This document shows positions 641 through 30,571 of a stretch of DNA of 64,000 nucleotides, one piece after another. Both the position numbers and the translations under genes were made by a program. The stretch comes from Podospora anserina (lineage: Eukaryota). The notes below the pieces were generated by a model. The model was not told the DNA's origin. It saw nothing but the letters and a program-made list of their open reading frames with translations, and ran no database searches. The DNA lies in the NCBI GenBank assembly GCA_017654855.1, contig CM030336.1:4526001-4590000 (forward strand). Direction: 5' to 3'. Each line of letters begins with the position of its first letter. Position 1 is the stretch's first letter.

Positions 641-719
641 GCCAGGTCACCTTCGTTGGACGCTCCTCGGGTTCACCTGCCAGGCATCCAGTCTCTTGTC
701 TGATCATCAAGTCGCTAAG

Positions 720-1963: not shown

Positions 1964-2106
1964 ACAGACACCACAATACAAGAGTGACGTGCAAGAAGGA
2001 TCTGGTCATCAGCTTGAGGATTGGCAAAAGAGCAAACGGCAAAAGAAAGCAAGGAATTCTTTCACCCACACATTTTGTACCTACCTACCTACTTCATAGT
2101 ACATAT

Positions 2107-11000: not shown

Positions 11001-11649
11001 CCTCTTCTCCATCTTGGATGGGGTTGGCGGCGTTTGTAATCCCCCTCATCTGTCCGACGGTCATCTTCATGGATAGCGTACTCGTTTGTTCCCACTCCTG
11101 CCCGGCAGGTAGATTCGGCAGTCCCTTCAAATCTCCTGGATTCAACTTGAGCTCTTCTTGCGTGAATGTGAACAGCGCCAGCCACGGCACCCTCCGCCTA
11201 GTATCGCCATTACCCTCCGTACTGGGGCTGCCAATTCTCTCCCACGGTAGATGGGGATCGCTCAACACAACGTGAGGCAGCATCCGGTTCTCTTCGGGGT
11301 ACCCCGACGGCGGATAGACCGAATAGACGGACTGTTCAGGCAGCATAAATTGCGGTGCGTCGACGGAGAAGGTCTGCTGAGAGAGGAGCAGCAGTGGCTG
11401 GTCGTTATTCTTGGCTGTGACGGTCTGCTCCGCGGTGACAGTGTACTGGGGTCCTGCGACAAGACTCGGCGCCCAGAAAGAGTTGAGCCGTTCCTCGCCG
11501 GGGAGGAGATCTGGACCGTCGTCGTCTTCGCCCAGTAGGGCGAGGCCTTTAGCTTTGCGGGCTTTGTAAACATTTCTTCGGGCATGGCGGAGGGTGAGGT
11601 GGCGGGGGGAGTTGATTGCCCGAGATTTGCCGCCTGTGAAGATAGCCAT
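8029..11649 (-). CDS. Uncharacterised 1206-aa protein (component A of the DUF6603-associated cluster), intronless
   Basis: 3.6 kb open frame. Conserved-looking blocks: FSVDAPQFMLPEQSVYSVYPPSG, LPHVVLSDPHLPWER, VPWLALFTFTQEEL, YLSHVRKIN, AVHLVSIEG, DVTYSSAWNLGRVLA, GVPAHYLISDPSHLSPESLKFFYIDPNWVDAMIDG, GFYLRSDLV. No signal peptide. Confidence 0.9.
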   Translation of the reverse strand: MAIFTGGKSRAINSPRHLTLRHARRNVYKARKAKGLALLGEDDDGPDLLPGEERLNSFWAPSLVAGPQYTVTAEQTVTAKNNDQPLLLLSQQTFSVDAPQFMLPEQSVYSVYPPSGYPEENRMLPHVVLSDPHLPWERIGSPSTEGNGDTRRRVPWLALFTFTQEELKLNPGDLKGLPNLPAGQEWEQTSTLSMKMTVGQMRGITNAANPIQDGEEEFRNVNDKKGEFILIKSNLFKSLFSAFDENGNRIEKDKPDVSQYTYLSHVRKINTTGMAIGGTEDVGIFSIVVGARSGPMHNKTPVSVAVHLVSIEGVEQMTFPNPEEKQFVSLCSLHSWNYTVMPPNMLNVYDSFVNLGRSLSVLRPPQDVIDSLKGNRVSERLAKRLEDGFTLVKYRMQTGESTMAFYRSPFTPTVVPKNPYFDTCSNSGQDFQILDQELGIVDVTYSSAWNLGRVLAVGDQGFTAALSRLRGAIHKLAMHKIKLAAAKKLGGETSVRTLAEVLDGMKHTVNRLNEMSEGLPTETPDPVDGPSDPATSPTSSWVRWFRPILGPKKTRALDLNNRIIEQQYLEAATEAALELSLAQGSDEKHQIVYDETNSPVSTDWMVVLAFVMDRMFLSGVPAHYLISDPSHLSPESLKFFYIDPNWVDAMIDGTLSLGNEKGTDMDRAAIKEAVNRFIKHLPEEQKHRPQVPTYGFYLRSDLVTMFPDLKVDTVRKDQEAPPQAPLLRHEIVADGVMLGLLDRTPGSVDFDTLIFTQPPHQPCFAVGNSLGADHLTVNMRKQYTVDKEERKLDPSNPQLPFKPPIEQRPTSKDNFFLWNTVPRAVQPDVEDDLRLLRSTRFAKVQLDMLNDKNLMKPYKHPKNPEGPDIVPFEDDTPNSALFAMQLTEPIYYLEIDLKKSGSGQPVPAIASLQPPENTTMIRSLAFAAPEGPQTLRTLHSTNHPIVPKLFPSTAASDDEDSGSEDDSDHPFLRPRAASTAASSIFSLDTSEPASLAYSPCDAPHIRSIPTVTSPILPPSPSTPHFARLATRAAIAPEDPAGPPVFKCTAYTPNQNAIYTNSLNLPKDIVFSILVSNTQSNYMLKEFDVCIPLGDTKYQGRNMLMKTYQGAGATILSNLRFNALLQFSKLHDPELDVLILRLLPRSSSGFVSVRKVYELSSILSLAYLNDYGKGDRVVRLITLAYFRGARERDPIRGEFEVVLSNDG

Positions 11650-12380
11650 CTTGGACTGAACCCCAAAACTGGAAAGCAGTCAAGGGCTATAACTCTAGCG
11701 TTAAGAGAAGTGTCGTGAAGTGAAGAATGAAGTAAGCTGCTGTTGGGCAAAACGTGAGGACGATGAGGAACTTGGAAAGTTGTTGTGCAGCAGCTTTGGT
11801 TTGGTCCGAGATTGGCCCACTTGCGATTTCCTCTCTCCCCCTCCCCACAAAATAGGCCAGTTATGTTCGAAGTACCTCGTTGTCTCCAAGATCAAAAAGT
11901 GACTTTGGGCGATACTTTTCCTGTTGAACAATGAGCACCACTATCCCCGAAGCAGGCAGACCGGAACCCCGCAGGGGTCACCTGCATTGCATAACAGACG
12001 GAACAGAGAGACCTATCGAAATATGCAGTACTACACTGCGTCACTGCATGTCTCAAGCGCGAATTCCGCAAGCTGGCATAATGGAACTTTGAACTGTCTG
12101 CTTCAGCCAGCCACTTTTGAGGATCATGATGGGCACGTCTGCATCATGAGCCGGATTGGGAGATGAAGCCGTACATCATGAGCGCTGAGTTGTCAGGCAT
12201 CACGATCGTCAGGTGAAATCATCCGGTGTCAGGATTGTGAGTTTCATATTGTTCGTCTTTGGGTGATCTACAACCGCAGCGCGTGGTGGTTTGAGGGGCC
12301 ACTGACTCCATGAAGGAAACTGCCATTATTGTTACCTCATATTTACGAAAATGATGTGCAGATTTTGCATGACAAGACGA

Positions 12381-12388
12381 TATATAAG
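12381..12388 (+). promoter_or_regulatory. TATA box of the beta-propeller gene
   Basis: TATATAAG about 140 nt upstream of the ATG at 12528. Confidence 0.5.
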
Positions 12389-12527
12389 TTATGATGGCTC
12401 TGCTTCAACATTCTGCCTTTAGATCCTCTCACTTTGTCACCATCTTTCCCATTACCTTGACAAACAAAAGACATCTCAACTGTTCCACAAAGTATTTCCC
12501 ATCTGCTTCAGGACTTGAATAGCAATC

Positions 12528-13548
12528 ATGGTCGGCGTAACAACCATTGCGAACCTCAATGCCCCAGCCGGCAAGCAAATCAGCTTGTACTACAACCTCA
12601 AAAATCAGAACCTTGGTCTTCAGCAACGCAACGAGTCCACTTCGCAAGACCCCCCCACCGATGTCTATGTCTCTAGCATCACCGCTCAAGTCGGATGGAT
12701 TGAGAACCCATCCCAGGTGGCCAGCGCCAACTTGACCGGTCTTCCACTTGTCTTCGGCTTCACTGAAAAGAAGGCCGATCCTGCTGTTCCCAAGCAGCTG
12801 AATCACGACGTCTCTATCCTTTCCCCTGTGTATAACCCTGTTGGCCAAACTCTCAAAGACAACAAAACCATCGCTGCTGTCAGTGACGGTGTGTCTGCAT
12901 CTGTCTTCTTCCTCACGTATGTGCCCCATCTTACCTTTCTACACTTATTCCTCATCCCCTCTTCCCTTCGTCTGTTCAGTCAACCAGGCTTATTGACCTT
13001 TTACCCAGCGGGGGAAGTGGAAACGCCTACAAAATCGAGGAGGCAGTCGTCGGCCAAATCCAACCAGACGATTGGTCCGGAACCGCAGTCATCATCCAGG
13101 ACTCATCCCTCGCTGCGTACTATTCCGAGCCCGGTGTTCGTCGGATCATTTACCAGGCTGCCGACAACTCCGAGATCCACGATTATCGCCCCAAACGAGG
13201 ATGTAAGTAAAACCTAGCCCGGAACTCATACCGATTAATAACCATTTTTTGACAGACGTGAACATTGGCAACACCAACGCCAAAGATGCCAGTCCTCTTG
13301 CTGTTGTCACGGCCGGCAGCAAGGCCTACCTCTACTACGTGAACACACATGATCAGGTGAAGAGGATCGTCAAGAGTGACCTCTCCAACCCGGACTCGTG
13401 GGGTCAGGAGCAGGATGTCAACGCGCCTAAAAAGGTTTCAAAGGAGAGTCAGATTACTGTCATCTCTGCGGGTGGGAAGAATCATTTGTTCTATGTCGCT
13501 CAGGGGGCGTCTGACACTACGTTTGAGCATATTGTCGACAGCCAGTGA
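12528..13548 (+). CDS. 291-aa beta-propeller protein resembling fungal fucose-specific lectins. Exons 12528-12916, 13009-13202, 13256-13548.
   Basis: Two canonical introns (GTATGT...CAG, GTAAGT...CAG) join the 229-aa and 99-aa ORFs through a third frame. Blade-like repeats: KTIAAVSDGVSASVFFLT, SSLAAYYSEPGVRRIIYQ, SPLAVVTAGSKAYLYYVN, SQITVISAGGKNHLFYV. No signal peptide. Confidence 0.8.
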
Positions 13549-14032
13549 AGGCGGGGACGGAATGTGGCTTGGATCTGACTTGCTGTCCACCTTTTTGTTA
13601 GGTTGGCATCACGATCGTTTCCTTCTCGGATAGGGTCTGGTAGCATGGATTCGTTCATTTATCTCACAATTTGGACCCTCGTGTGTTCAATACTTTATAT
13701 TCCTGTCTATAAAACTGAACACCAGCTCCTTCATCCGCGCTGATCAAGAACCGGCGGAGGCAATACTGCAACTAATCACCGTATTTCAGACTATAAAGGC
13801 GTGTATATTGTGCACGGTGTCAGATCTTCACTGTGACTTCTTGCCTAATTTTGCTATCCTCCAGGGCCATGAGTCAACCTTGCTATTGGTAGTTGGATGC
13901 ACAATCAAGCATGTATTGTGTGGATAAGGTGATGGGCTAATACCACAAAACCAAACTCAACAAATATTCTGAATTCCTAAACTAACCGGTCGACATGCAT
14001 CCCAAGCCCTACGTAAACCTACCATGGCACTA

Positions 14033-17000
14033 TCATGTCCTCGTCCCCTCTGCCTTGGTGTCATCCTCCGGCTTCTCCACCATAATCGGCCTCCGCAACT
14101 GCAAAAACCCCTCAATAGCCGTATACGGCGCCTTTTCAAACCCAGGTGCCATAACATTCCCCTTCCTCTCAATCCCATAAGCATTATAACTAGGAAATTC
14201 ATCCCCTTCAATATCAAACGGCTGCAGCCAATTCCAATCCCCAACGCCCAACGACGGAATAGCAACATTTCTCTTCGGAGCATTCTTCATAGACTTGGTC
14301 GTCAATCGACGATCCTTGCTGAACTCGCCCACGTCCTTGACAACATTCAACGGACCAGCATGGAAGAAAGCAACCATATTCTGCATGGCATCCTGCCAGG
14401 TCCAAGACGGCAGCTGCAGGGATTTGGCAGGCAAAAAGGAGGAAAACGCATGGACGGGCGTGAATGGGTCTAGTATAGCGCCGTAAACCTTCATTTCTTT
14501 GTTTCGAAGGTCGCGGTATTGTTGTGGGGAGAGGTACGGCCCGTCGTAGTGCCCGCCAGAGTGCGGAAATGGGGCTACCCAGAATGGTTTGAGCTTCGGG
14601 TAGGAGGTGTCGGGTGTGTTGTCCATCGGAATGAGATTCTCGATCCCGGAAGGGGGAGCAGGCTTTTTGTTGTCCTCGTTGAAGAAGTAAGTGTAGACGT
14701 TGTTGAGGACAAGCTCCTTCTCGTTGTCTTCGACGGTGGGTTCGGCAATGGTCTTGAAGTAGCCCACTAAGCCGTCGGCCTCGCGGGCCTTGTCGCCGAG
14801 CTTGATTTGGAATTCGTAGCTAGGTGCGGGAGGACGAGCATCCTGGGCAAGGAGATAGCGCTCGGGAGTGGCGCTCGCGACGCTGGTTTTTGTGCTCTGG
14901 TTTACGAGGGCGGGTTTCTCTAATTCCAGGGAGATGCCCATGTTGACGAGGGCGAGTGGCTTGCCGACGATGGAGCCGAGGAACTGGGAGTAGGCGCTGG
15001 GTGAGGGGGGCATGTTCTTGATGGCGGTCGAGATCATGATCCATAATCCGCGGAGGTAGTTGGCATTTTTCATCTTCTCGACGAGCTCGTCGAGTTGTCT
15101 GTTGTCCTTGACCGCGGGGGCTTTTTTCTCGTTGGAGTCCCCGGCCCCGGGCTCGGGAATGTTGTCGTCGTAGGCGAATGGGAGCCATCTGGGTTCAGCT
15201 ATGGCGCCATCCCGGCCCCCGACACGAACTTCGCGATAAAAAGTGCCATCGGCGAGGAAGATTTGGATGCCTTGATCCGCGTAGTTGATCACAAGCCAGC
15301 CCCAGATGGGATTCTCCCACTCGTCCACAGGGCGCCAGTAGGAAGAGACGGTATCGGGCTTGGGAGGAATTTCTTTGCCTTCATCATCTAGGTGTCGCTG
15401 GCGGATGACAAAGTCTGCGTTGAGACGCGCAGCTTGGTTGATCTGGGGCGGTAGCTGCATGAACTCGCACTTGGGCCCTTCGTTTTGCAAAACAGTGTTG
15501 GCGTGAGTCTTGCCGTTGACTGTGACGGTCTGAGGTTCGTAAAAGTCGCTGATGGCGGGATAGATGGGAGGGTGTTGACGAGGACCAGCGAGTGGCTTGG
15601 GGTCGATGGCGACAAGGGCTTGTCCAAACTTGTCAATCACATTGAACTTGGTGAACCTGAACTGCCCATGAGTTACGGGTTTGAAAGGGCAGAAGTCCTT
15701 TTTTGTGTAGTCATTCTGCACCGAGTAGGGCGTCAATGCGGAGTTGTTCTGAATCATTTGGATGCGTTCGTTTGTCAAGCCCGCCAGAGGGAACTCGGCC
15801 GCCTTAATCGCAGTAGTGCTCTGCAGACCATCACTCGTGATGAACTTGTTCTCTGGTTTGATGTGTGTCCCCGCTGACAGAGTGAGCAAGCCTTCAGTGA
15901 AGCCATTCAGAGGACAGGAGAGGAAAGGTAGTTTGGACAAGTGTTGCTGTACCCAGGTCCTCTCGTCATCATCAAGGTGCTCCTTCAAGATGGAGGGCGG
16001 TGTATTGTCAAACAGCTGATTCACCTTCGCCGCCAAGGAGAAGCTCGGCTGGGGAAGGATGAGAACCCGGCCGGAGAGGAGACACGTATCGCCCGCGGCA
16101 GCTGGTGTGCCAGACTTCATCTTCTCCCAGAGCGGCGTTGCGGGCTTTCCGTCTGCATCGACACCTGGAACGCCGTATCTGATCTTCTCAGGGGCGGAAA
16201 GGCGAACTGCCTGGCCGCTCAGATCCCAGTACTCAAAGGGAATGTGAGTATACTCCACGGCCCATTCAACGTAGAGCGGGAACCAAGGCTGACGATTCTC
16301 CCATCGATCTCTCCAGTACTTGTTGTCATTAGTTGCAGAGAGCTTGTCATGAAACTGGGGGAATGCGTGATCTTTCTCAGCAGCGGCATCGTCTGCGGTG
16401 TTGCTCGGCATAAGTGTCCAGAACTCTTTCAGCAACGTCTCAACGGCGCTCAAGGCAGATTGTCCGGGGAATTTCGTCGTCACCTGTGCTGCCAAGTTGC
16501 TGATGTCCCCCGGGACGGCCGTCTTCGTAACACATTGTGAAGACAACCTCGCCGTCCCACTGTCATTGAAGTCAGAAGGCCAACCGGACTCAACCCCCCC
16601 AAGTAAAACCGTCGGGTCTCGATGCTGAAAGTAAAAAGGAAGCGTGCTCGTCTTCAAGTCCTCCAGCAGACTGCTTTCCTTCATTTTCTTCTTGATTTCT
16701 TGCATTGTCGTATCCAATTCCTTCATGCGGTCTTCCAACTTGCTCAACTTTTCTGCCAAATCGTTCGTCTGACGCACATACGGATCATTGTTCCGATTGG
16801 CAAAATTTGTTTGATCCGTGACGTACTTCCACCAAATAGAGAACATGTCCCACCTGTACTGCTCTGCAGAGCGCGCACAGGCATCAACGAGCTGCTGATT
16901 GATGTTCAATTCGGCAAGCAGCTCGACGGCCTTGGGGTCTGGCTGGGTGGGCTTGCCCTTGGAGTCTTGACCAGCAATGAAATAATGCTTGCCACCCTGA

Positions 17001-18394
17001 ACGCGGCCGAAGTTCCAGTTGTAGACCATGTCTTTCGCTTCGCGCTGTCCCTCTACACCGTCATCCCTGGCATGGAGCAAAGAGTCAATGGCGAGAATGT
17101 CCTCCTCCAACCTCTCAACATCCTTGTCTTTCTCCTTGTGCCGCCTCGCGGTAATATAGGTGATCAAAGCGTCCATAGGTGATGTTCCTATCGCCGTGGA
17201 CGGCAATGAGTCATCCTGAAGTGTTACCGAGAACTTATCAGAAGGCATTTCAGGCTTGGTATTCATGTCCCAGCGGACATCGTACAAAGCACCGTGGAGA
17301 CACATCCTAACAGCGGATGTATCGGTGAGGAATGTCTCGACCTCACTCGTGCCAGTGTCCTTCAGCTCCATGTAAATAGCTTTGAGCTTATCCTCATGAG
17401 TGAACTTTCCATTCTTGTCAAACAAGGGGTCAGTGCTATCAGTGGAGTGCCAGCCAACGAGGTAGTAGTCTGCCGTAGCGGAATCGAGGTAGTGTCCTTC
17501 TGATGGCTTTGGCGGAGGTGCACCATCATCTCCCCTTGCGAGCTTCTTCTTATCATCTTCATCGAGGTACTTGAAATTGTCGACAATGCTAAAGACATTC
17601 GCGTTGTGGAGCTGGAAATCCGCAAAGAACATGTTGCCGCTCTTGAGAAGACTGATGTCCGTGTAGGAATTCTGATTGCCAGGCTGATAATCAGCCAAGG
17701 GGGTCTTCCTTCCGATAAAGACCTCAGCCTGTTGCTCGATATCCACCCCTTCGCCTTTCTGCCCAACTACAAAGGGGCTAACATCGGTCTGAAGATCAAA
17801 CGTGACAGGGATATCGTCAAGATCCCACTTGTAGTCACTCTCCAGCACCCAAGCCTCGTACTCGTTGAAGTATTTCTTCAATTCCTCCTTGACCGAGTCC
17901 ATGTGGAGCCTTCGGATGATGATCCACCGCGTAGGGGGCTGCAGATACTCTGGCGTGTCTGAGTTCTTTTTGTCGCCGCTGTCCTTGCTGGGTGGTTCTG
18001 TCCTCGGGGGGAGACCAAGTCTTTCACGCTCCTTGTCGTGCCGTTTCTCATCAACGGAGTCGGCAGCTACCACTCCAGACCTATACATGTCTGGGAGAAT
18101 CCAGTGGAGATAGACGCCATATCTGTTACGGCGCGGAGTTGGGTGAGGCTGGTCGCCCAGGTCCGTAAGGCGCATGTTCGTCGCAGCAGGTGCGGCATTG
18201 TGTAGGTCGGAGTGCCCAAGAACATCACTCTGGATGAGAAAGTTGTCCAGGCGGAGGAAAGTGTAGTTTGGCTGCGTGATGGGGATTATACGAGAGTTCT
18301 TGTCGTCCGCTTCGTTGGCGACTTTGTCGTTGAGAACAAAGGCTTGGAGCTGAAGAGGGATGAGGACGACACTGTCATTTGGCGAATTCTCCAT
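14033..18394 (-). CDS. Uncharacterised 1453-aa protein (component B of the DUF6603-associated cluster), intronless
   Basis: 4.4 kb open frame. Blocks: VLIPLQLQAFV, RYGVYLHWILPDMYRSG, PPTRWIIIRR, AWVLESD, FADFQLHNANVFSIVD, YYLVGWHS, central coiled coil, QPWFPLYVEWAVEY, GQFRFTKFNVIDKFGQ, QLPPQINQAARL, NPIWGWLVINYADQGIQIFLADG, GKPLALV, GLVGYF, LDPFTPVHAFSSFLP. Confidence 0.9.
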   Translation of the reverse strand: MENSPNDSVVLIPLQLQAFVLNDKVANEADDKNSRIIPITQPNYTFLRLDNFLIQSDVLGHSDLHNAAPAATNMRLTDLGDQPHPTPRRNRYGVYLHWILPDMYRSGVVAADSVDEKRHDKERERLGLPPRTEPPSKDSGDKKNSDTPEYLQPPTRWIIIRRLHMDSVKEELKKYFNEYEAWVLESDYKWDLDDIPVTFDLQTDVSPFVVGQKGEGVDIEQQAEVFIGRKTPLADYQPGNQNSYTDISLLKSGNMFFADFQLHNANVFSIVDNFKYLDEDDKKKLARGDDGAPPPKPSEGHYLDSATADYYLVGWHSTDSTDPLFDKNGKFTHEDKLKAIYMELKDTGTSEVETFLTDTSAVRMCLHGALYDVRWDMNTKPEMPSDKFSVTLQDDSLPSTAIGTSPMDALITYITARRHKEKDKDVERLEEDILAIDSLLHARDDGVEGQREAKDMVYNWNFGRVQGGKHYFIAGQDSKGKPTQPDPKAVELLAELNINQQLVDACARSAEQYRWDMFSIWWKYVTDQTNFANRNNDPYVRQTNDLAEKLSKLEDRMKELDTTMQEIKKKMKESSLLEDLKTSTLPFYFQHRDPTVLLGGVESGWPSDFNDSGTARLSSQCVTKTAVPGDISNLAAQVTTKFPGQSALSAVETLLKEFWTLMPSNTADDAAAEKDHAFPQFHDKLSATNDNKYWRDRWENRQPWFPLYVEWAVEYTHIPFEYWDLSGQAVRLSAPEKIRYGVPGVDADGKPATPLWEKMKSGTPAAAGDTCLLSGRVLILPQPSFSLAAKVNQLFDNTPPSILKEHLDDDERTWVQQHLSKLPFLSCPLNGFTEGLLTLSAGTHIKPENKFITSDGLQSTTAIKAAEFPLAGLTNERIQMIQNNSALTPYSVQNDYTKKDFCPFKPVTHGQFRFTKFNVIDKFGQALVAIDPKPLAGPRQHPPIYPAISDFYEPQTVTVNGKTHANTVLQNEGPKCEFMQLPPQINQAARLNADFVIRQRHLDDEGKEIPPKPDTVSSYWRPVDEWENPIWGWLVINYADQGIQIFLADGTFYREVRVGGRDGAIAEPRWLPFAYDDNIPEPGAGDSNEKKAPAVKDNRQLDELVEKMKNANYLRGLWIMISTAIKNMPPSPSAYSQFLGSIVGKPLALVNMGISLELEKPALVNQSTKTSVASATPERYLLAQDARPPAPSYEFQIKLGDKAREADGLVGYFKTIAEPTVEDNEKELVLNNVYTYFFNEDNKKPAPPSGIENLIPMDNTPDTSYPKLKPFWVAPFPHSGGHYDGPYLSPQQYRDLRNKEMKVYGAILDPFTPVHAFSSFLPAKSLQLPSWTWQDAMQNMVAFFHAGPLNVVKDVGEFSKDRRLTTKSMKNAPKRNVAIPSLGVGDWNWLQPFDIEGDEFPSYNAYGIERKGNVMAPGFEKAPYTAIEGFLQLRRPIMVEKPEDDTKAEGTRT

Positions 18395-19395
18395 CTTGGT
18401 AGTGCTGGTGTGTCGTTCCTGGTATCACCTGACTCAAACTGAAGCTCTCTAGGATGGTTGAGGCTGGCTTGACAAGATGGGGAACTACTCCCACAAGCTT
18501 TGTCTTCCAGATTGATCATTGCTGTGACCCGGGCGACGATATCTCCGCTGGGATGAAGCCAGTGTTCCTTGCACGGTGCATTGCATTGTCCAGTGTCCTC
18601 CGTTGACTGTTGCATTGCAGCTCAATTTGTGGAAGCCACAGATGCCCCGAATATGCACTCGATCGAGACGTGATAACAATTGCAGCAACAATTAGTCTCC
18701 TGCAAGTTTTCAGCTTTCCGCTCGCAACTGCCCGTCTATCATTTCTGATTCTGGCGTTGTACATCTGATCTTCTCTTCTGGTCAAACCTGCATGGTACAA
18801 TCATGTGAATGAAGCATACCCATCGTGATCACATCACGGCTCTCCGGTCCTGGCCTTCGCCAATAGAACGGACCGACGATGGGATCAGCGCGGTACTTTC
18901 AGCCACTAGGTGCACCTTTGCCCAAATGCCTCAAACTGCCGCACATGCGATTTATCCTTGTTGACATAGAGCCTATGGGACCGCGAGGTCGTAAAACGTG
19001 TGATAACATTAACGCATGCTGAAGACTGCGGCTTGCGCACATACCACCTCACGGGCCGCATTTGGAAGCCCAATCAAAGTGCAATTCAGAAGGGAATGGT
19101 GGGAAATCAGTGTTCCAGGTTGGGCGCTGATTCTGTAGGCCCAACAAGAACCTACCATAGATGTCTTCGTCATCGGCGAGATATGAATCACATGACATCG
19201 TTCAAACGGCTCATCTCTCTTGGCTCTCAGCACACAATGACTGTCTCAATAACCTCTTCTCAGAATACAAAACACTCCGGTTGCATCCTCCCACTGAAAT
19301 AATGGCTGTATGTCAAGAATGTCCTGTCCATTTGCTTGCATACCTAACATCAACTCCTCTAGCCTCCTCCGCAATGGACAGATGATTACACCCAA

Positions 19396-19677
19396 ATGGG
19401 TGGCGATGCAATCTGGGGCCCCGATGGCGAGGCGGTTGCTTACATCACTGCTGCCGGCCTTGACAAGACCAACTTGAAGCCACTCTTCACCCTCCTACCC
19501 TCGGTCACTGAAGACTTGACTCTCTTTCAAACGGGGTCACCGCTCAAGTTCTATCTCTGGAGTGCCGACGACTACAGTCTTCACAAGGTCACCTTGGATA
19601 ACTTGGATGAAATCTTGAAATGGCTGCAGGCTGAGGACAGGCCGTTCTATACTTTGCCATCGGAGAGGATTTTCTGA
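19396..19677 (+). CDS. Small hypothetical protein (93 aa or more; 5' end uncertain)
   Basis: Globular-looking acidic/hydrophobic ORF (...LKPLFTLLP...LFQTGSPLKFYLWSADDYSLHKV...). An upstream ATG GCT GTATGT...CAG intron candidate does not join in frame. Confidence 0.4.
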   Translation: MGGDAIWGPDGEAVAYITAAGLDKTNLKPLFTLLPSVTEDLTLFQTGSPLKFYLWSADDYSLHKVTLDNLDEILKWLQAEDRPFYTLPSERIF

Positions 19678-20028
19678 CGGCAGGGTGGTTCAAAAGGGGA
19701 TATGTGATTAATCTCTTTTTGCACCTAGTTTGCAGCGAGTACTAAAACTATTATCCTGTTGAAGATCACTGTGGCTCTGTCAGGGCTGCCCTTGCATTTC
19801 AAGAAGCTCGTGACATTTTGTTGGAAACTGGGGTTGCATGATAATTATGGGTTCTCCCACACTATTCAATCATGCAGAAGAACAGAGATAGCGAGCGGAT
19901 GTAACTTCTTGCTATAGAAAACTCTCATTTACACCATACCATGACTATCAATGAAACCTCTAATTTCCATCTCAAAGAGATTGAAACAGCATTTCCAACG
20001 ATTCCACCCACCTCAATCTTGACTCATG

Positions 20029-21397
20029 CTATGTTGTGATATCGAAGGGCAAATGGACCACTGGGTCGAACTGTTTAAGGTCGGCCTCGTAAATTCTCCC
20101 CATGAATGTGCAGTTTGCGCAAGGACCTGTAAAGAAATCGCGGATCTTCTCCTTGATATTCTTTCTTTGCTGAGTAATATGCTCGTATTTGTATTCTCTT
20201 TCGACTTTGAAATCTTTTGACTTCTTGTCAAAGTCAGAATCCAGGGTTGTGCCTCTTGGACTCAAGGCTATGCCCTTTGTCCTGGCCCTTTCTTGCGGAG
20301 TGCGGTGTCTTTTTCACCGGATATTATCAGCCAGCTGTGTATGAAATGGGAGACGCAAGCGAATGACGTCGTACTTACGATAGCATATGGAGAAAGGTGT
20401 ACGTCTCGGCACAGTTTCCGTATCGGAAGGTGTCTATGCTTCCCCCGGTCTTTGCCCACTTCCACTCCATGGTCTTGGAATACCCAGTAAAGTCCCAGTG
20501 GGCCACGATGTTGACTATTCCTTTGTCTCTATCGCAAATGTCCCATCGCGCCTTTCGAAGAAGACCGCCAAAGTTCCTTGTGCCGAGGCTACCGTAGTAA
20601 CCACCGAGCGACGCGCCCAACGAGAACAAGTTTGGCTCTCCAGAGGCCTTATCTGCTTCCGTCCATGTGATCTGGTACATGTTTGGTTGTGTCGATTTCT
20701 GCTTGTCAGACCGGACTACTACTCTTGCCGTGGGGAAATCCGGATCGGGCTCAAATTCTTCGATGTCTTCTTGGGAAAGAGGCGTACTGCCTCCTTCCAG
20801 CATCACACCAGCCCAGCGTGCATATAGCGCAAGGATTGGTATGTAGAAATTCTCCACTGTGGCGTGGGGCGGCGCGACCCCGAGCTTTGAGAGAAAGAGG
20901 CCCAGGAGGTCCGGAAGTAGAAAATAGAAGTTGTTTCGTAGGTCGTCCTCGACGACCTCTTTGAAGCGCTGGCGTCTTTTGTCATCTTCGAGTTTGGAAA
21001 TGTCGTTGTCGATGAGAGCTTGAGGCAAGAAGTTGAACCTCCATTTCGCTTCGGTGCCGCGGACATGAAGGACGCGCTTGTCATTCACTTTAGCCTTTTC
21101 CTCTCGTAGGACATGCTGCTCAGGAACTGGCTCTCTCCACTCAGCACCTGGAGAACTGTAATGCAATGTTAGTCAGGCGGCACATTGAAAGCCCCGAACC
21201 AATTCTGTGTGTCTGGATGCCGTCCGAATGTTCGTCGCACTAGATCGGAAAGGATTCTTATCATACCACAGCAGCTTGACCTTTTCGAGAACTAATCGCA
21301 GTTCCTTTTGGTGCGCCTCGTCTATCTTCTTAGCAGCTTCCCACTGCTCCTCCGTTCTCTTCCCCTTCGACACAATGCTCTCCACTAGGCCTTCCAT
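20029..21397 (-). CDS. 395-aa putative Zn-dependent deaminase-fold protein (CAE ... PCxxC). Exons 21397-21267, 21155-20379, 20308-20029.
   Basis: Introns GTATGA...CTAAC...CAG and GTAAGT...GCTGAT...AAG join three track ORFs (74, 263 and 78 aa) in frame. The spliced product contains RYGNCAETYTF and FTGPCANC. Confidence 0.75.
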
Positions 21398-22431
21398 TTT
21401 TTCGACAATCTACCCAGCAGCTATTAGCCTGGATTCATTCAGAACATCAGTCTGAAGGCCTCGATGACAAGGAGTATGTGAAGCCAAAACTGGTGATAAC
21501 AGGGAAGGTCTGGCACTTCATTGCTCCTCACTCACTTTTGCAGTCTCTGTAATGACATAGAGACTCTCAAATGTAGTATCGGGATCGCCTCGCGTGAGAA
21601 TTTCCCACTCCAAGGGAGCCGTGGAGGATTCCATGTTGGCAATATCAACGTGAAGATGGATTCTTTATTTGGTCGCTCTTCGAGAAACAAAAGAGGGAGA
21701 TGTCCTTACCCGGGATCAAGAGTGTACGAAGATCGTGACCATGAGTTGGAATAATGGTAGGTCCCTTATACAGAACCTGAAAGAAATGGGTGTCGTCTCT
21801 CATGACGTCTGCGATTCAGTGTAAGTATCTATTTGTCGAGGGGGAGAATAGAGTACTTTCACGGCACTTACGAGAATGGGAGGGGTTGCTCTGCTGCGGG
21901 CCGCCCACTTCAGCAGTTGATCCTTGGGTTCAGCTGCATTTGTTAGGTTGTCAGCCCATGGCTTGGCGGACGAATGGGTGTCTAGACTTTTGCATCTAGA
22001 CTTTTCATGCATGTATCGCGCGCTGTCCATTGTACCCGGCGTGCTTTTACGCAGTTGATCGACTTGAACTTGTTCCCAATCTGTCAAGGTGCATCACCCT
22101 CATGTATGCGGGGAGTCGGATCACATAGCACTGTGCCGACACCAAACAGGTACTGTATCTGGGACACCACTTCAGCAGTACCTTACGTACTCGGAGTTCA
22201 AGCATCGGTGACACTGCTCTCTCTCATGGGGTCCGATGCCTCGCCAGTCGTCTTGTTTGATCGCGAAATGTCGTTACAGTAGGAGGATGCTGCACCGAAG
22301 ACCATGATGTCGGCCTTGGCCTTGACCACGACACAATTTATGATTCACTACATTTCATTCTTGGTTATCATTACCAATACTAAGATACACAAACCACAGC
22401 ACCCACTCAGTCAACCCGTCTCATCGCCAAA

Positions 22432-25400
22432 ATGTCAAACGAAGACCCTCCCCCGCCTCCAGCTCCTCCCTCTGGCCCATTCACAGTCTACTCCAGCGTC
22501 GCGAAGCAGGGTGGCACTGGCTCAGTCAAGACTCTAACAGCAAAAACAAACATCGACAACTTCGTCCGTCAGCTTAGCTCAAGCAGTCTCGTCTTTTCCA
22601 GAGCGCCAACATCCCCTTCTCCTGAGACGATCCCTTTGGACCCATCTGATATCACCTTCAAATGGCTTACGCTCCTCGATCCCAAGGGCACCGTGAGTGC
22701 AGGTTTTCATGATGCTGCCACTCAAGACATCGATAACTTCCAGGTCCGCATGGCAGCCCCTTGGGATCTGGTATTCAGTTCTGCGCCCACATTCCTTGTA
22801 ACGACATTTGGTTCTGAGGGCAATCCGGGTTTAGCACCTGTGTCCAAGGTCCCCGTACCTGGGTTGAAGGATACTGGCAATCTTCTGTACATGGGCCTCG
22901 ACCCAACGACCACGCCCGTCACGGCGTCTGTGAAGGAACTCTTCGACTTCGCTGGGCTGAAGTCACCGCCTCTCTCTGAGTTTGCACCTTGGGGTGTCAC
23001 GCTGCGTGTATCAAGCGATCCAACAAAGCCGATTCGTAACGCGCTTTGGTACAGCCCACTCAACTACGATCAGACCATTCTCCGTCTGCAGTTCAGTCTG
23101 AGTGACGCAGACAGAGCCACCTTTCAAAGCTACATTGCCAAAGCACTTCCATCCCTCGAGTTCAGAAATGTGGATTTCATCTGCCGCCGCACCATCACCG
23201 GTACGACTACAGGTGGCAAGATATCAGCTTCCGCCCAAGGTGAAGTCCTGATCGAGACAGAGTGTCATCTTTTGCCCAAAGGCCACGATCTTCAGATCAG
23301 AGCGGGAATCAGAATTTTCCATGACCAGTACCATCTAACGTTCCAGCTCGACGAGCAGATCAAAGGTCACTCTGCTCTGGGGGACATACTGGCCTGGCTT
23401 GCAGAGTGTGTTGGGCTTCAGTCCGATGACTTCAAGTTTGTGACGGACATGCTTATGCAGCAGGATGGAAAGGCCTTTGGGGATGCGCTGGAGTTGCGCC
23501 GGATCCAGATTGCTCTCGGTACTGATGACGGCGGCAAGACAACCAAGTTGATGTCTTTTAGTGTCGACATTCAGGCCACGGCAACATTTGGGCATGAGAA
23601 TGGCCCTGATGGCAAGCCCAAGGACGCAGACCCCGTTGTCTTTCTGCTCACGTACTTGTGGGAGCGGGGAGGACCAACATTCGGGTCGATTAAAGGGAGC
23701 TTGTGGAAGGGGAAGCGCCCCATTTTCTTACCTATTTTTCTCTTCCCAGCTGTTTCATACCTACTTGTCGCTAATTTTCCAGTAATATACCAAGTCTAAT
23801 AGCTAACACGCTTTTCCAGACTTCAACGATAGCCCTGACAGGAACTTGGCGCCTGGGTTCGAGGAAATCAACTCTCTCGTCCCCACTCTCGCCAAAGTCC
23901 GCAAGACCATCAGCATCCCGGGCCTCATCCCAGGCTTGAACATCGAGAACGTGCCACACAATATCCCCACTGATATCAGCAGAGCCTACGTCGTGCTCAA
24001 CCAAAGCAGTATAGCCGTGGGCGGTACTGTCCAATCGCTGGATTTTACCTCCCAAGATAAGGACTACCCCGTACCACAGCTTAATCTTGGATGGGTCAGC
24101 ATCGACGCTTCGTACAACTGGGCCAAAGGGGCAACATCTCCTCTCAACGTCAAGGCCTCCTTTCTCGCCGAGCTCAGGCCGTCCAAGAATGCTACACACA
24201 AGGAGCCTGCCACGCTCGTGGGCGCCATGGTCTATGATAGTGGCAAGTGGACTTTGAGCGCTGACCTGGAAGGACTATATCTCTCCTCCCTCTACAACTT
24301 CTTTTTCCAAAAGCCATCGAACGCCGACCCCGATGCAACTGGAGAAGCAGATCATGTTCTCCCGCTCATCGAGGCCATCGAGATTGAAAGCATGAAGCTC
24401 ACCTACGTCTATGACAAGACGCCTACTACGGGAGACCAAGTTGTTGGCAGCTCATTCACCTTTGACGGAATTCTGAATGTCTCTGATTTGCAGCTCAAAC
24501 TTCATTTCTCGTATGAGAAGAAGGCCTTTGAGTTCCGAGCAACGTTACATGCCGGATCGGCGACAACCATTGGGAAGATCATCGAGGATCTCGTCGGAGA
24601 TGGCATCGACGTCCCAGAGTTCTTGTACGACGCCAAACTAGATCCAGCAAAAGACGGCCTTGAGATCGGTGTCATGAAGGGCTCATCGGCAAAGCCAGGC
24701 ACCCCTGCACCATTCCACTTTGTGGCCAAGCTCACGGTGAATTTCCCCAAAGATGTCCAAATCACGTTGACCTTCGCCCAGTGGCATGGTAGCAACTGGT
24801 CTGCTTCAGAACCGTCCAAGAAGCTGATCAAGGCCGCTCTGACCGGCATCCCCCATGTGTCCATCCCTCTTGTTGGCGATATCACGCAGCCATTTGACGA
24901 GATGTACTTCATGCATGTGATCGACGGTACCACGAAGAAGTCACCCCAGCAACTTCCCGGCATAACTCGCAAGGAGAAGGATGATCTCAACCTGGATGAA
25001 GCATTCAAGGCTCATCCTCTCGTTGTCAAGGACAAATCTAAGGATACCAGCGATGATGTAGTGGTCATCACTGCAGGCGCGCACCTCGCGATTGTCATCA
25101 AGAACGAGAGAGGCGAGAGAGTTTGCATCCTCGACTACAACTTCAAGAAGCAAAAGACTGTCGGAGATGGAAAGGAGAACACCAAAAAGCGAACCATCCC
25201 GGCAGGGGGAGAAAGTAAGGAACCTGCAAAGAAGGACTCGGACGGCAGCGCGGCCTCGGCGCCTCTGAAGAAGAAGATGGGCGGCCTATCCATCAGCGAT
25301 ATCGGTCTCAAATACGAGAACAAGATTCTCAGCATCTCTTTTACCGCCACCATGGAACTCGGCCCCGTGGGCTTCAGTCTCATCGGGTTCGCTCTCAACA

Positions 25401-27726
25401 TGGAGCTAACAAGCCTCAACCTGATCGATATCAGGATGCTGCCTCCTAGCCTGGAAGGCTTCTCAGTTGTTTTCGAGCGCAAGCCCCTTTCCATTGCCGG
25501 CATCATCCGCCATGGAAAGACTCCCGAACTTGAGTACTACGCCGGTGGACTCATCGTCGGATGGACGCCCTACCAACTCGAGGCAGCAGGCTTCTATGGT
25601 AAAGCCAAGCCCGAGGGACGAGACCCCTTCGTCTCCGTCTTCGTTTTTGCAAAGCTTGCGGGACCGCTTGTCTCGCTTGAATTCGCAGAGATCTCTGGCG
25701 TGACGGGAGGGTTTGGATACAATTCCAGCGTCCGCGTGCCCACAGCCGATCAGATTACCTCGTTTCCCTTCATTGATCAGCATGCCACGGATAATGCCGG
25801 CGATGCACTGGAAGCGCTGCAGAAGCTGACCAGCGCGGGACAGGATGCGTGGTTCCAGCCTTTGCCGGATACGTATTGGGCAGCAGCGGGCATGAAGATT
25901 GATGCCTTCCAGATGATCGCGCTTGACGCTGTTGTCGTTGTACAGTTCGGCACTTCTATCAAGCTGGGCATATTTGGTGTTGCATTAGTCGATGTTCCTA
26001 GCAGCCTGTCAGACTTCAAGTTTGCCCATGTTGAGCTCGGCCTCGCTGTTGTCGTCGATTTCGACATTGGTATCATGAAAGTGGAGGCGCAGCTCTCCCC
26101 CAAATCCTACATCCTTCATCCAAGCTGTAAGTTGACGGGTGGCTTTGCCCTTTGGTACTGGTTTGACGCCCCCCACGCTGATCAGGCCAATGTGGGCAAC
26201 TTTGTCTTCTCCCTCGGGGGTTATCACCAGGCTTTCAAAGTTCCAGTCGGATGGCCTGTCCCAGATCGCCTCAAAATCAACTGGGGTCTGGGCAACAACC
26301 TGTCCATCTCGGGAGAAGCCTTCTTTGCCATCACACCCAAAGTTTGCATGGGAGGCGGCAGACTTCGAGCTTCCTACTCCGCCGGGCCCATAGCAGCTTG
26401 GTTCGACGCTTTTGCCAATTTCCTGATCCAATACCAGCCTTTCCACTTTGCATCAGAAGCAGGCATTTGCATCGGCGCAAGCTTCAACCTGGACATCTGG
26501 TTCATTCACATCCACATCTCGGTCGAAGTGTCAGCAGATCTATACCTCTGGGGCCCCCCCTTGGCGGGCATCGTCTCTGTCAACATCAAAGTAGCCCGAT
26601 TCAACATCCACTTCGGCGATGACAACAACGGCCCCGGTGCACTGCAGCTCGACCAGTTCTTTGATCTTGTCTTGCAGGCTTCTAGCAAGAAGAAGGCAGC
26701 AACCACCACCACCCCCATGGCGGTCGCAACACCCATCATTCCAATCATGGAACCGGATCAAGCAGCCAGGTTCAAAAGGATATCTGACAACGTTGGACAT
26801 ACCTTCCTGGCGCGGTTCGGCCTCATGAACGATACCTCTGATCCCAAGCGCGAGCAGAACGCGGAGTGGGTAGTCAGGGCCGGCACATTCAGCTTTTCCA
26901 TCGGTTGCAAGATGATGGTTGACGACGTGAAGCTTGTAGGCAACAACAAAGAAGACATCAACTTCAAGGCCTCCGGGGCAGGCAGCATATTCGCCAAACC
27001 GATGAAGACCGATTCCTCCCTTGCCTCGCACATGACTGTGCGGATCACCCAGACCCAGGGGAAGCAGGTATGGGGAATGAGTCAGGAGTACAAGTCTGTT
27101 CCTACTGGTTTGTGGCAAAAGTGTAAGTGCTCCTCTCTGTCCTGCCTACTTCGACTGCTAATTATTCTGCAGACGACTCATCAAAAGACCCCTTGAACGG
27201 AAAGGGAAATAACAACATTGACGACTATCTCAACGACAAAGACGGAGGGATCAAGCTAATGAGCGGCATCTTGTTTTCTGCTCCTCCACCCAAGATGTCG
27301 GATGATAAGCTCAAGGTGTTTGACATCATCGACTCGACGCTCATGGAGATTGAGTCTGATAGGCAGTTCCCTCTTCCAACCAACTGCCATAAAGACTGGG
27401 ATCCTCACCCGCCAAGGAATGAGGAGGACGATGATGAGTGGACGGTTGTGCAGAAGAGGTGGAAGACACCTCTGTGGAACACGGATAATGAGCCTAAGCA
27501 CAGTTCTGTTTCCCTTGCAGTCGATTCGAGCTCAGAGGCTGCTGCTCAGCCTATTGTTCCAGTGGAACCCAAGACGCGAGACGTACAGACTGATTTTGTT
27601 TCTGCTTTTGTCAATGCTTTTAATTGGGATGCTGGCTTGAACTTACCTAGCCTGGCCAAGATGCCTCGGAAGCTGGAAAAGAGGTTTGGAGATTTGTTTG
27701 TTGTTCCACCGATGATGACTGCTTAG
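22432..27726 (+). CDS. ~1711-aa beta-rich DUF6603-type protein (component C). Exons 22432-23710, 23820-27122, 27173-27726; first intron donor is non-canonical.
   Basis: C-terminal half has motifs I recognise as DUF6603: GGLSISDIGLKY, GPVGFSLIGF, ISGVTGGFGYNSSVRVPT, YWAAAGMK, SYILHPSCKLTGGFA, GNFVFSLGGYHQAF, ISGEAFFAITPKVCMGGGRL, AWFDAFANFLIQYQPFHF, SADLYLWGPPLAG. Intron 2 is GTAAGT...GCTAAT...CAG. Confidence 0.85.
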
Positions 27727-27980
27727 TTGAATGGCAGTTTAGGGTCGAGAGAGGAGGGAGGGAGAGAAGGAGAAGGACACTTTTACATTGTAGCAGAGCT
27801 CACCTACTCAGCAAATGAGGCCAGTTCCTGGAATCACATTGGGTAATGGCCCTAGTATGTCTTGAAGTGTACGATAAAGTAGCCGCTGAAGAGGCTCAAC
27901 ATGGGCCGAAAATCAGCTGAGCTGAAAAGTCTGGCTTCTGTTATATACCTAACACGTATACATATACAGATTACCCCTTC

Positions 27981-30571
27981 TTAATCCACAGTGCCCTCGG
28001 GCAACACCGAAATATAATCAATCGGCGCCGGCTCCAACCCATCCGGCCTCCCCACAACCTTGAGCTCACTCCCCTTCTTAACCCTCACCCCCCTAAACGT
28101 CTTCCTCGCGGCCGTCTGTCCATCAATATATGGCGACGGCGCCCGTCCAAGCTCATACTCCAAATCCCCCTTCCACTTCCCCACCAATTTCCTATCCACA
28201 AACAGCTCCCAGGTCGAATTCCCCAGCGCCATATCATAGTAATTAACCGCAAGGTCATACTTCCCGCTCGGAACCTTGAGCTTCGTCGTGGCAGTGCCAA
28301 CAGTGCTGTTCGTCTCGGTAACGACACAGTGATACCCGCTTGCTGCCTCAAAGGGAGAGACTCTATACGACTTATACCCCTTGAGCTCCATCTCCTCAGC
28401 TTCAATCCTGTACTTGTGGTTGCCCACACGGCCGAGTTCATCAGGGATACCGCTCTTGTTGAAGTAAAACTGGTTCACACTGTCACGCCAGACGAGCGAA
28501 TGGCCAGCCTGGTAGATGAGCCGGAACAAAACGTGCTCGTAGCGCTCTTTGTCAATCCGGCCCTTGAGCTTCTCCCAAAGGGTGACGAATGTCTGCGCCG
28601 TGGCGCTGCCCTTGTAGTGGGCGTCGTAAAAGTGTTGAATGACTGTCTTGCCCGACTTGAGCTTTTGGGTGTACGGGACGTGGTGGAACCACAACAGAAG
28701 GTTGTCGGGGGTGGTCTCAATGTTCTCGTACATGGCCGCGATTTCAGGGGGGTACTGGCCGGCGAAACCGGTGCCGTTCCATACTGTTCGGTCCATGCCG
28801 ATGGTGTCATCGTCGGCGCGAGTCCATTGACCCCAGGGGTTTCCGTCTTGGGAGCCGGGGTTGGGACCGTAGTGGCCGAGGAGGATGTCGGTTAGGGTTT
28901 GGATGCCGAGGTTGCCGGAGTAATCCTCGTAGGCGGGCCAGGACTCCATCGAGATCTTGGTGATGACGTCGTGGACGAGCTTGTCGTGGCCGAAGGTGAG
29001 GGTGGTCCACTCCTTGAGGATGCCGGTGGAGGTTTGCTCCGGGTCCCAGGCGAGCTTGCCGTAGGCGTAGAGGTTGGACATGGCCAGGTGGGAGCCGAGC
29101 CAGGTGGTGTTGGTGCCGACGTTGACGACACCGGCGTACCCGGTGAGCTTCTGGCCGAAGCGCTTGCCAGACACGATGGACTTCAGGGTCGAGGGCTTGC
29201 TGTCGACGCGGAGATCAAAGTCGAGGAGTTCCTTCCACATGGGAGCGAGGTAGACGACGTCTGTGAAGAGAACTGTTAGGAAGTGACGTGACAAGGGGGC
29301 AGAATGAGATTTCACATACGGGCTTGTTGGCCAAGATACTCCTGGGTAATCTGAAGCTCAACTGTGGCACCAGTCCTGCGAAGGTGGGTGAAGAGAGGCG
29401 AAACAGGCTCGCGGACCTGGAAGTCGATAGGGCCGTACTTGATCTGAATGACAACATTGTCCTCAAACTTGTCATCGAGACCGTCAAAGTAGTTGACGGC
29501 CGCGTTGGCGCGGTCAGCCTTCCAGTCCAAAGTCTGGTTCAAGCTGCGGTGATCGTAGACGAAAGCGCGGAAAATGATGATACCGCCGTGGGGCTGGAGA
29601 GTGCGCGCAAACAGGTTGGCGCCATCAGCCAGGGTGCGGTTGTATGTCATGGGACCGGGCTGGCCTTCCGAGTTGGCCTTGACGAGGTAACCCGCCATGT
29701 CGGGAATGCGCTTGTAGAGGTTGTCGGCGATGCCCTGCCACCAGTTGACGACAGTCTCGTCAAGGGGGTCGAAGGTATCAAGCCCACCGAGAAGCTGAGG
29801 AGCGGCGAAGTTGAGCGAGAGACCAAGCTGGACACCGTAGGGGCGGAAGACGTCGGCGATGCGAGCGAGACCGTCCATGTTCTCGGGGGTGAGGATCGAA
29901 GCATTGGCGTTGACATTGTTGGCTACGACGGCGTTGATACCAATGGAAGCCAACAGCCGGGCGTACTGACCGGCGCGGGTGAGGTCCTCGCGAATGTGTC
30001 CGTCCCAGAAGAAGATGGAGTCACCGCCATAACCACGCTCGACGCTGCCATGAGTGCCACCATCTTGCATGTTGTCCCATTGGTTCACCCATCGGACTGG
30101 CGCATCGGGGTTGGAGGTAAGGGTAAAGTCGGACACATTGCCCTGGGCGATGACGGAGAGATAGTGGAAGGCACCGTAGAGGGCACCGCGCTCGTTTTGA
30201 CCGAGGATCAGGACGTTGCCCTTGGAGATCTTGAGGTAGAAGCCATCCTCGACGAGGTCGGGCAGACCCTTGGCAGCAGAAGGGTTCTTGTCGACGTATG
30301 CGCTGACGGTGCCAACGGTGGCAGTGGTACCCTTGGGCTTTGATTTTGCAACAGTCAACTTCTTGCCAAAAAGACCGCCGATGCCGTCCACCAGCTCCTG
30401 TCCAGCGGTATGGACGGGATATCCCTTGGTGGCGTTGAGAGTGACGACGGCAGAAGGCAGTTTGCCGAGATGGCGGGAGGCACTCGGGACGCGAGCATAT
30501 CGTAGCCAGGCAGCGAGACCGTCTTCGGCGACGGCAAGGCCGACGACCGCGAGCCACAACAAACTCCGCAT
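27981..30571 (-). CDS. aguA: Secreted alpha-glucuronidase, GH67 (843 aa). Exons 30571-29320 and 29260-27981.
   Basis: Signal peptide, then EDGLAAWLRY, RWVNQWDN, SVERGYGGDSIF, GYLVKANSEGQPGP, QIKYGPIDFQVREP, ELQITQEYLGQQAHVVYLAPMW (restored by a GTATGT...CAG intron), DNLLLWFHHVPY. Confidence 0.96.

What the first reader, a model, noticed from the sequence alone, without database searches (positions are those of the whole stretch)
20029..21397. Hidden spliced gene encoding a toxin-type deaminase fold inside the cluster
Seen: three separate track ORFs splice in frame into 395 aa. GNCAE and PCANC lie in different exons, so the motif pair is invisible without splicing. Established: Zn-dependent deaminases use [HC]xE plus PCxxC, and CAE variants occur in polymorphic-toxin deaminase clades such as YwqJ-like. 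Inference: this is a nucleic-acid or nucleotide deaminase acting as cargo or effector of the DUF6603 cluster, or as an editing/mutator enzyme.
Basis: partly seen in the sequence, partly recalled or inferred. Interest (0 to 1): 0.72.

Follow-up and report, generated by a model that had tools for sequence, protein, structure and literature searches.

The report
Fungal deaminase with dedicated partner gene
A real, spliced Podospora gene encodes an unclassified zinc deaminase-fold protein whose small neighbour gene stays beside it, or fused to it, in other fungi, which suggests an undescribed toxin-plus-antidote pair, here lying inside a bacterial-type gene cluster of unknown function.

Summary
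The gene is real. RNA-like contigs from 3 of 3 studies splice both proposed introns exactly and show a missed 5' exon: the protein is 432 aa, four exons (P. anserina Pa_5_11190). GxCxE is invariant in 67 of 67 aligned relatives, PCxxC in 54 of 55. The predicted core matches only Zn deaminases in its top 21 structural hits (best Z 7.2). No Pfam family fits; the anatomy is YwqJ-like but membership fails. The new result is a partner: a 106-aa gene 351 bp away, single-copy like the deaminase. Its family sits beside deaminase relatives in Trichoderma and 5 of 15 metagenome loci, in varied orientation, and is fused to them in 9 Xylariales proteins. A DUF6603 link recurs in two other genera (chimeric annotations) but is not general. 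Best reading: a cytidine-type nucleic-acid deaminase toxin with a cognate inhibitor, optionally carried by the DUF6603 cassette. Substrate, binding and toxicity are untested. The scan had not noted this family before; it had noted DUF6603 cassettes in bacteria.

The parts
21536..21634 (-).
   Evidence: Translation; joint 21409|21536 in 3 of 3 RNA-like runs; conserved in Trichoderma orthologue
21267..21409 (-). Deaminase gene, coding exon 2 (N-terminal helical region)
20379..21155 (-). Deaminase gene, coding exon 3: helix 1, strands 1-2, insert, GNCAE (C329 Zn ligand, E331 predicted catalytic residue)
20029..20308 (-). Deaminase gene, coding exon 4: strand 3, insert, PCANC (C403, C406), stop
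20309..20378 (-). 70-nt intron separating GxCxE from PCxxC; its position appears conserved in the family
   Evidence: Joint in 3 of 3 RNA-like runs; 57 of 133 GxCxE-bearing relatives end 5-26 aa after the motif, as gene calls that run into an intron do
21809..21871 (-). 5' UTR intron (63 nt)
   Evidence: Joint in 1 of 3 RNA-like runs
19302..19677 (+). Small partner gene (106 aa; exons 19302-19307 and 19363-19677; orthologue annotated QC764_511195), convergent with the deaminase; family without Pfam match; candidate inhibitor/immunity protein
   Evidence: Intron joint in 2 of 3 RNA-like runs; family of 344 proteins; linkage and fusions; single copy
22432..27726 (+). DUF6603 gene (three exons), divergent from the deaminase; core of the surrounding cassette
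   Evidence: PF20248 E 1e-148; introns
14033..18394 (-). 1453-aa cassette gene, homologous to the third gene of a Streptomyces DUF6603 cassette
   Evidence: BLASTP E 1e-39, 23% identity
8029..11649 (-). 1206-aa cassette gene, homologous to the second gene of a Streptomyces DUF6603 cassette
   Evidence: BLASTP E 1e-43, 28% identity

Best explanation
The gene encodes a catalytically intact zinc deaminase of the cytidine-deaminase fold: Zn held by C329, C403 and C406, E331 shuttling the proton. It belongs to an unnamed family of filamentous ascomycetes and works as a two-component module with the 106-aa neighbour. Most likely the deaminase is a conflict enzyme that deaminates cytidine in nucleic acid (as bacterial YwqJ does on single-stranded DNA), and the small protein is its cognate inhibitor that protects the producer. 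In some lineages the module sits in a DUF6603 cassette, which may carry it as an exchangeable payload. Shown: gene structure, transcription, motif conservation, predicted fold, repeated linkage and fusion with the partner family. Inferred: Zn geometry, catalysis, substrate, inhibition by the partner, toxicity, export.
For: Splicing in 3 of 3 RNA-like runs. G327, C329, E331 invariant in 67 of 67 aligned relatives; C403 and C406 in 55 of 55 that reach them. In the model both motifs sit at helix N-termini after strands 2 and 3, as in the deaminase fold. The core model's top 21 matches are all Zn deaminases (3oj6 Z 7.2, rmsd 3.4 over 108; 3b8f Z 7.1, rmsd 3.1 over 105). Gx[CH]xE, the two inserts and C-terminal truncation are the marks of the YwqJ toxin clade (PMC3239186 Table 1 passage); YwqJ is an ssDNA cytidine deaminase with an adjacent immunity gene (PMC13648612). 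Partner: both genes give one match each in the 36-Mb genome and are neighbours; neighbours in Trichoderma chlorosporum by locus tag and equal contig length; beside deaminase relatives in 5 of 15 metagenome loci, 4 of the 5 with 1 kb or more of flank on a side, both convergent and divergent; fused C-terminally in 9 of 175 deaminase-search proteins, all Xylariales (hhalign 98.6%). Patchy, fast-diverging family (22-34% identity outside the closest relatives).
Against: No activity data. Structural Z-scores stay under 8 and Foldseek finds nothing; the best structural matches are enzymes for free nucleosides (blasticidin S and cytidine deaminases), not DNA toxins (DddB Z 4.8, DddA Z 3.7). No Pfam, NCBIfam or PADLOC match for either protein, including YwqJ and SUKH families. 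The partner is more conserved than the enzyme (87% against 64%, Podospora against Trichoderma), and permanent fusion in Xylariales needs release or cleavage if the partner inhibits; both fit a regulatory subunit as well. L012 has the deaminase without the partner in 3.3 and 4.3 kb of flank. Three of the five linked metagenome loci (L008, L011, L014) come from one sample series and may be one lineage; the nine fusions are one fungal order and rest on gene annotations. No fold-change is listed for either gene on exposure to two Serratia species (PMC4835503 supplement rows). No obvious signal peptide or known trafficking domain (sequence inspection).
Confidence: 0.5

Rival explanations
1. Small-molecule deaminase: it detoxifies or modifies a free nucleoside or nucleoside antibiotic, as blasticidin S deaminase does, and the small protein is an accessory subunit.
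For: Best structural matches are blasticidin S deaminase and cytidine deaminase; CxE and PCxxC are also the CDA/BSD motifs; large inserts (aa 263-326, 356-401) could close the pocket; transcribed without evident harm in 3 studies.
Against: The model lacks strands 4-5 of CDA/BSD; no dCMP_cyt_deam match beyond 1 of 67 at E 0.14; patchy, fast-diverging family with a dedicated partner is unlike salvage enzymes (own knowledge).
Confidence: 0.2
2. Intracellular RNA editor or antiviral/genome-defence enzyme regulated by the partner, in the manner of the Neurospora OLD-ZAO editing module.
Against: OLD enzymes are OTT_1508-type by that note; this protein lacks the GxxK motif and post-helix-3 elements of that clade. 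No edited letter in window 8000-27900 in 3 RNA-like runs (contigs lose rare variants). The partner shows no zinc-finger or RNA-binding family match.
Confidence: 0.15
3. The deaminase is an obligatory part or payload of the DUF6603 machine.
For: Lies between two core cassette genes; deaminase and DUF6603-gene sequence joined in annotations of A. coremiiformis (E 6e-28) and F. mangiferae (E 3e-11); all cassette genes covered by RNA-like contigs in the same runs.
Against: 0 of 15 metagenome loci carry cassette genes, including L011 with 9.7 kb each side; no deaminase in 50 kb round the second DUF6603 locus; no deaminase annotated in 3 of 3 annotated bacterial cassette regions; no prokaryotic relative found.
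Confidence: 0.1
4. Linkage without function: the genes travel together in accessory islands, and the partner has an unrelated job.
For: Unusually high identity between orders (64% and 87%) suggests block transfer; the partner family is large (344 hits) and its neighbours could not be checked in reverse.
Against: Linkage survives in convergent, divergent and fused arrangements at under 35% identity, which one block transfer does not explain.
Confidence: 0.05

Closest known systems
YwqJ deaminase clade (Pfam PF14431; Bacillus subtilis YwqJ with immunity protein YwqK; PMC3239186, PMC13648612)
   Same: [quoted passage not shown]
   Different: No PF14431 match in 67 members; no conserved His in the insert; no LXG/RHS trafficking domain but a 175-aa family-specific helical N-terminus; spliced ascomycete genes, whereas the passages read name only basidiomycete eukaryotic members; partner matches no known immunity family.
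Cytidine deaminase / blasticidin S deaminase (PDB 3b8f, 3oj6)
   Same: Best structural matches (Z 7.1-7.2, about 105 residues); three-Cys zinc site motifs CxE and PCxxC.
   Different: 11-13% identity; three times longer; lacks the C-terminal strands; large inserts; dedicated partner gene.
Fungal OTT_1508-like deaminases, including Neurospora OLD-1/OLD-2 of the OLD-ZAO module
   Same: Fast-evolving fungal deaminases with an N-terminal extension and, for OLD, a linked partner gene.
   Different: Different clade: no GxxK before CxxC, no helix-4 region, no Pfam match; partner is not a zinc-finger protein (OLD-ZAO details from an earlier scan note and recall, paper seen as listing only).
Bacterial DUF6603 (PF20248) three-gene cassette
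   Same: All three core genes have homologues round the deaminase.
   Different: Fungal copy is rearranged and spliced; no deaminase annotated beside 3 bacterial cassettes viewed; no paper holds the term DUF6603.

Membership tests
Zn-dependent deaminase (CDA-fold) superfamily | [HC]xE motif at the start of helix 2 | tested here: met
   C329-x-E331 invariant in 67 of 67; helix 331-339 in the model
Zn-dependent deaminase (CDA-fold) superfamily | PCxxC at the start of helix 3 | tested here: met
   C403, C406 in 55 of 55, P402 in 54 of 55; helix 404-412
Zn-dependent deaminase (CDA-fold) superfamily | Core fold: helix 1, strands 1-2, helix 2, strand 3, helix 3 | tested here: met
   Top 21 rows of the core-model search are Zn deaminases, best Z 7.2, rmsd 3.4 over 108; Z under 8, Foldseek silent
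Zn-dependent deaminase (CDA-fold) superfamily | Three ligands converge on one zinc; deamination activity | not testable with these tools
YwqJ clade | Gx[CH]xE in helix 2 | tested here: met
   G327 invariant in 67 of 67; definition from PMC3239186 Table 1
YwqJ clade | [quoted passage not shown] | tested here: not met
   Insert present (aa 263-326) but no conserved His; conserved residues there are G266, W/F276, R284
YwqJ clade | Insert between strand 3 and CxxC; truncation after helix 3 or strand 4 | tested here: met
   Strand 350-355, CxxC at 403-406, only short helices after 412
YwqJ clade | Match to Pfam PF14431 | tested here: not met
   0 of 67 members at E up to 1; no match in the genome while the B. 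subtilis control rings. A profile-profile test could not be set up (no YwqJ sequences obtained)
YwqJ clade | ssDNA cytidine deaminase toxin activity blocked by a cognate immunity protein | not testable with these tools
   Needs bench work
OTT_1508-like fungal deaminases | GxxK before CxxC; strand 4 / helix 4 loop with conserved polar residue and axxP | tested here: not met
   No such conserved columns; no strand 4 in the model; no Pfam match
SUKH immunity superfamily (for the 106-aa partner) | Four-helix, six-strand split-sheet fold; match to SMI1_KNR4/SUKH/US22 profiles | tested here: inconclusive
The resemblance of the C-terminal half is from memory only
DUF6603 cassette | Constant presence with the three core genes | tested here: not met
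   Linked in Podospora, A. coremiiformis, F. mangiferae; absent at L011, L012 and the second genomic cassette

The most novel reading that the evidence does not exclude
Filamentous ascomycetes have a chromosomal polymorphic-toxin system: the bacterial-type DUF6603 cassette is a delivery or display apparatus, the deaminase is a DNA-mutating payload aimed at competing microbes or non-self hyphae, and the 106-aa family is a new class of immunity protein, made separately or as an autoinhibitory fused domain.
Probability: 0.2. Interest if true: 0.9.

Novelty: new variant of a known kind. Interest (0 to 1): 0.63.

Why it matters
Bacterial deaminase toxins come with immunity genes, but a conserved deaminase-partner pair on fungal chromosomes was not found in the searches run. 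If the partner is an inhibitor, this is a new eukaryotic toxin-antidote module, testable at once in a genetic model where both genes are single-copy and transcribed. It would also give a first biochemical handle on the uncharacterised DUF6603 cassette. The family (225 clusters at 50% identity) is an unclassified deaminase scaffold with a possible natural off-switch, of interest for editing tools. If it proves to be a small-molecule enzyme, it is still a new family but far less surprising.

Tried and rejected
Alternative splice models: acceptor at 20334 gives a stop at codon 304 and no PCxxC; donor at 21240 is not the one used. Family libraries: Pfam on exons, full proteins and both alignments, NCBIfam and PADLOC gave nothing significant. 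PDB sequence search: only weak cytidine deaminase rows, E 0.6-1.2. Foldseek: no match for either model; full-length VIA search gave Z 5.0 at best. Prokaryotic or viral relatives: none by pattern scans of GTDB genomes and IMG/VR for deaminase or partner, none in plasmids by tblastn; these scans are of limited sensitivity. Complex prediction of deaminase plus partner: no verdict (score 0.00, alignments not used, partner fold uncertain), neither for nor against binding. No run on record as RNA was listed (14 holders are guessed RNA); three runs of one study held none of the words, which is no evidence on expression. ESM Atlas ranked Chordata clusters first (0.95); not confirmed, since every named relative looked up was a filamentous ascomycete. 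YwqJ and SUKH-3 sequences for a profile-profile test were not found in four plasmid records. A family tree was not obtained (script machine lost). The paper reader closed before the supplement of PMC3239186 could be searched; it may list these fungal proteins, which bears on novelty. Two paper searches, one for the motif string, timed out. The reverse test (are partner genes always beside a deaminase) could not be run.

Full report
1. Observation. The window is fungal: G000 has 36 Mb in 9 contigs, and the gene matches the protein named PODANS_5_11190 of Podospora anserina (259 of 259 identical over the long exon). Frame-keeping alone proves little, since very many splice combinations do so. 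Laying public contigs settles it: runs X2, X5 and X7 (three studies; RNA is the tool's guess) all skip 20309-20378, 21156-21266 and 21410-21535, and DNA-like run X15 skips none. The third joint adds an exon, 21634-21536, so the protein has 432 aa. Two Logan proteins of 395 and 425 aa on 2-kb contigs read straight across the junctions. No edited letters were seen.

2. The protein. No Pfam, NCBIfam or PADLOC family matches. A five-sequence profile finds 225 clusters at E up to 0.001 among 1.84 billion representatives. Of the 154 proteins then held, 133 carry GxCxE, 57 also a downstream CxxC, and 57 stop 5-26 residues after GxCxE, where this gene has its intron. In a 67-row alignment chosen for length, G327, C329 and E331 are invariant, and C403 and C406 are present in 55 of 55 rows that reach them. 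All named relatives looked up are filamentous ascomycetes: Sordariomycetes, Eurotiomycetes and one Pezizomycete. AlphaFold gives a confident single unit (pLDDT 88.5, pTM 0.91): helix 181-200, strands 241-246 and 257-262, CxE at the start of helix 331-339, strand 350-355, CxxC at the start of helix 404-412, and no further strands. Foldseek finds nothing. The exhaustive aligner ranks deaminases first for the full model (Z 5.0), and for a model of residues 179-432 (pLDDT 73) its top 21 rows are all Zn deaminases, led by blasticidin S deaminase (Z 7.2, rmsd 3.4, 108 residues) and cytidine deaminase (Z 7.1, rmsd 3.1, 105). Z is under 8, but unanimity of the hits plus motif placement makes the fold assignment firm. 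Zinc geometry was not measured.

3. Which clade. Iyer et al. [quoted passage not shown] This family meets all but the His and does not match PF14431. It is YwqJ-like in build and is not filed as a member. B. subtilis YwqJ is an ssDNA cytidine deaminase with an adjacent immunity gene (PMC13648612; abstract and two sections read).

4. The partner. A 106-aa gene on the plus strand (19302-19307, 19363-19677; intron joint in 2 of 3 runs) ends 351 bp from the deaminase stop. It gave weak hits beside deaminase relatives in metagenome loci, which align on ten invariant columns. A profile built without the window protein finds it at E 2.5e-5 among 6375 segments. The family has 344 members at E up to 0.1 among 558 candidates and no Pfam or PDB match. 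It lies next to a deaminase relative in 5 of 15 loci: L017 convergent; L008, L011, L014, L019 divergent. Ten loci have under 1 kb on both sides; of the five with more, four carry it and L012 does not. L008, L011 and L014 share a sample series and may be one lineage. In Trichoderma chlorosporum the two genes have locus tags 315055 and 315060 on contigs of equal length. Nine of the 175 proteins from the deaminase searches carry the partner domain at the C-terminus after a 40-60 residue linker; all are Xylariales annotations (Xylaria, Nemania, Hypoxylon, Daldinia; hhalign probability 98.6%). In P. anserina distant queries of each family give one match each, at these two genes. The partner is more conserved than the enzyme (87% against 64% to Trichoderma). 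A SUKH-like look of its C-terminal half is recalled, and was not supported by Pfam (SUKH definition from passages of PMC3113570).

5. The DUF6603 cluster. The pair lies between a 1453-aa gene and the DUF6603 gene; with a 1206-aa gene these are homologues of the three core genes of a Streptomyces cassette. Two deaminase relatives are annotated as joined to DUF6603-gene sequence: A. coremiiformis to the N-terminal part (E 6e-28) and F. mangiferae to the last exon (E 3e-11). These are probably merged neighbours, and show adjacency in three fungal orders. Against a fixed link: none of 15 metagenome loci holds cassette genes, though only L011, L012 and perhaps L014 have enough flank; the second DUF6603 locus of the genome has no deaminase in 50 kb; three annotated bacterial cassette regions list no deaminase. 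Earlier scan notes describe exchangeable enzymes at bacterial cassettes; these are unchecked leads. The link is optional.

6. Mechanism. Best reading (0.5): an intact Zn deaminase that attacks cytidine in nucleic acid as a conflict enzyme, held in check by the partner. Shown are gene structure, transcription, motifs, predicted fold and linkage; catalysis, substrate, inhibition, toxicity and export are inferred. Rivals: free-nucleoside or antibiotic deaminase with an accessory subunit (0.2; the closest structures are of this kind); intracellular editor as in OLD-ZAO (0.15; PMC12754623 seen as listing only); obligatory cassette component (0.1); linkage without function (0.05). Against an inducible antibacterial role, neither gene has a fold-change listed after exposure to two Serratia species (PMC4835503, supplement rows only).

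7. Novelty. No paper in the library holds DUF6603 or the gene names in its main text; two thematic searches returned nothing on this family; two more timed out. The scan's notes hold nothing like this protein. The unseen supplement of PMC3239186 could already list relatives. Verdict: real gene, corrected to 432 aa; unclassified deaminase family; conserved two-gene module; new variant of a known kind; interest 0.63.

Noticed in passing
window 12633-13709, + strand: Three-exon gene inside the cassette (introns 12917-13008 and 13203-13255) with by far the deepest contigs in all three RNA-like runs (depth cannot rank genes); no Pfam match; its repeats recall a fucose-lectin beta-propeller (from memory).
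   Followed up: partly
G000:C1:3411514-3412779 (L006, L024): Second DUF6603 locus with in-frame stops and a fragment of the 1206-aa gene homologue next to it; looks decayed.
   Followed up: partly
window 19316-20308: Single contigs join the partner's intron and the deaminase's introns, so the convergent transcripts may overlap at their 3' ends (contigs carry no strand).
   Followed up: no
P0080, P0171, P0172, P0064, P0173, P0175, P0121: In 7 of the 9 Xylariales fusions a methionine lies in the linker shortly before the partner domain; an internal start could give free partner from the same gene.
   Followed up: no
ESM Atlas hits for P0001: Two Chordata-dominated clusters of unnamed 364- and 388-aa proteins score 0.94-0.95; a possible animal branch of the family, unconfirmed.
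   Followed up: no
P0155/P0296 against P0003/P0241: 64% and 87% identity between Podospora and Trichoderma chlorosporum, against 22-34% for other relatives, suggests transfer of the pair between orders.
   Followed up: no
window 61001-62000: Very AT-rich block (GC 0.195), probably a RIP-degraded repeat.
   Followed up: no
window 420-3633 and 27981-30610: The cassette is flanked by plant-polysaccharide enzymes: GH62 with CBM1, an esterase, and GH67.
   Followed up: no
window 50209-52436, - strand: DUF7580 region followed by a subtilase S8 domain, a layout recalled from fungal protease-linked cell-death modules.
   Followed up: no
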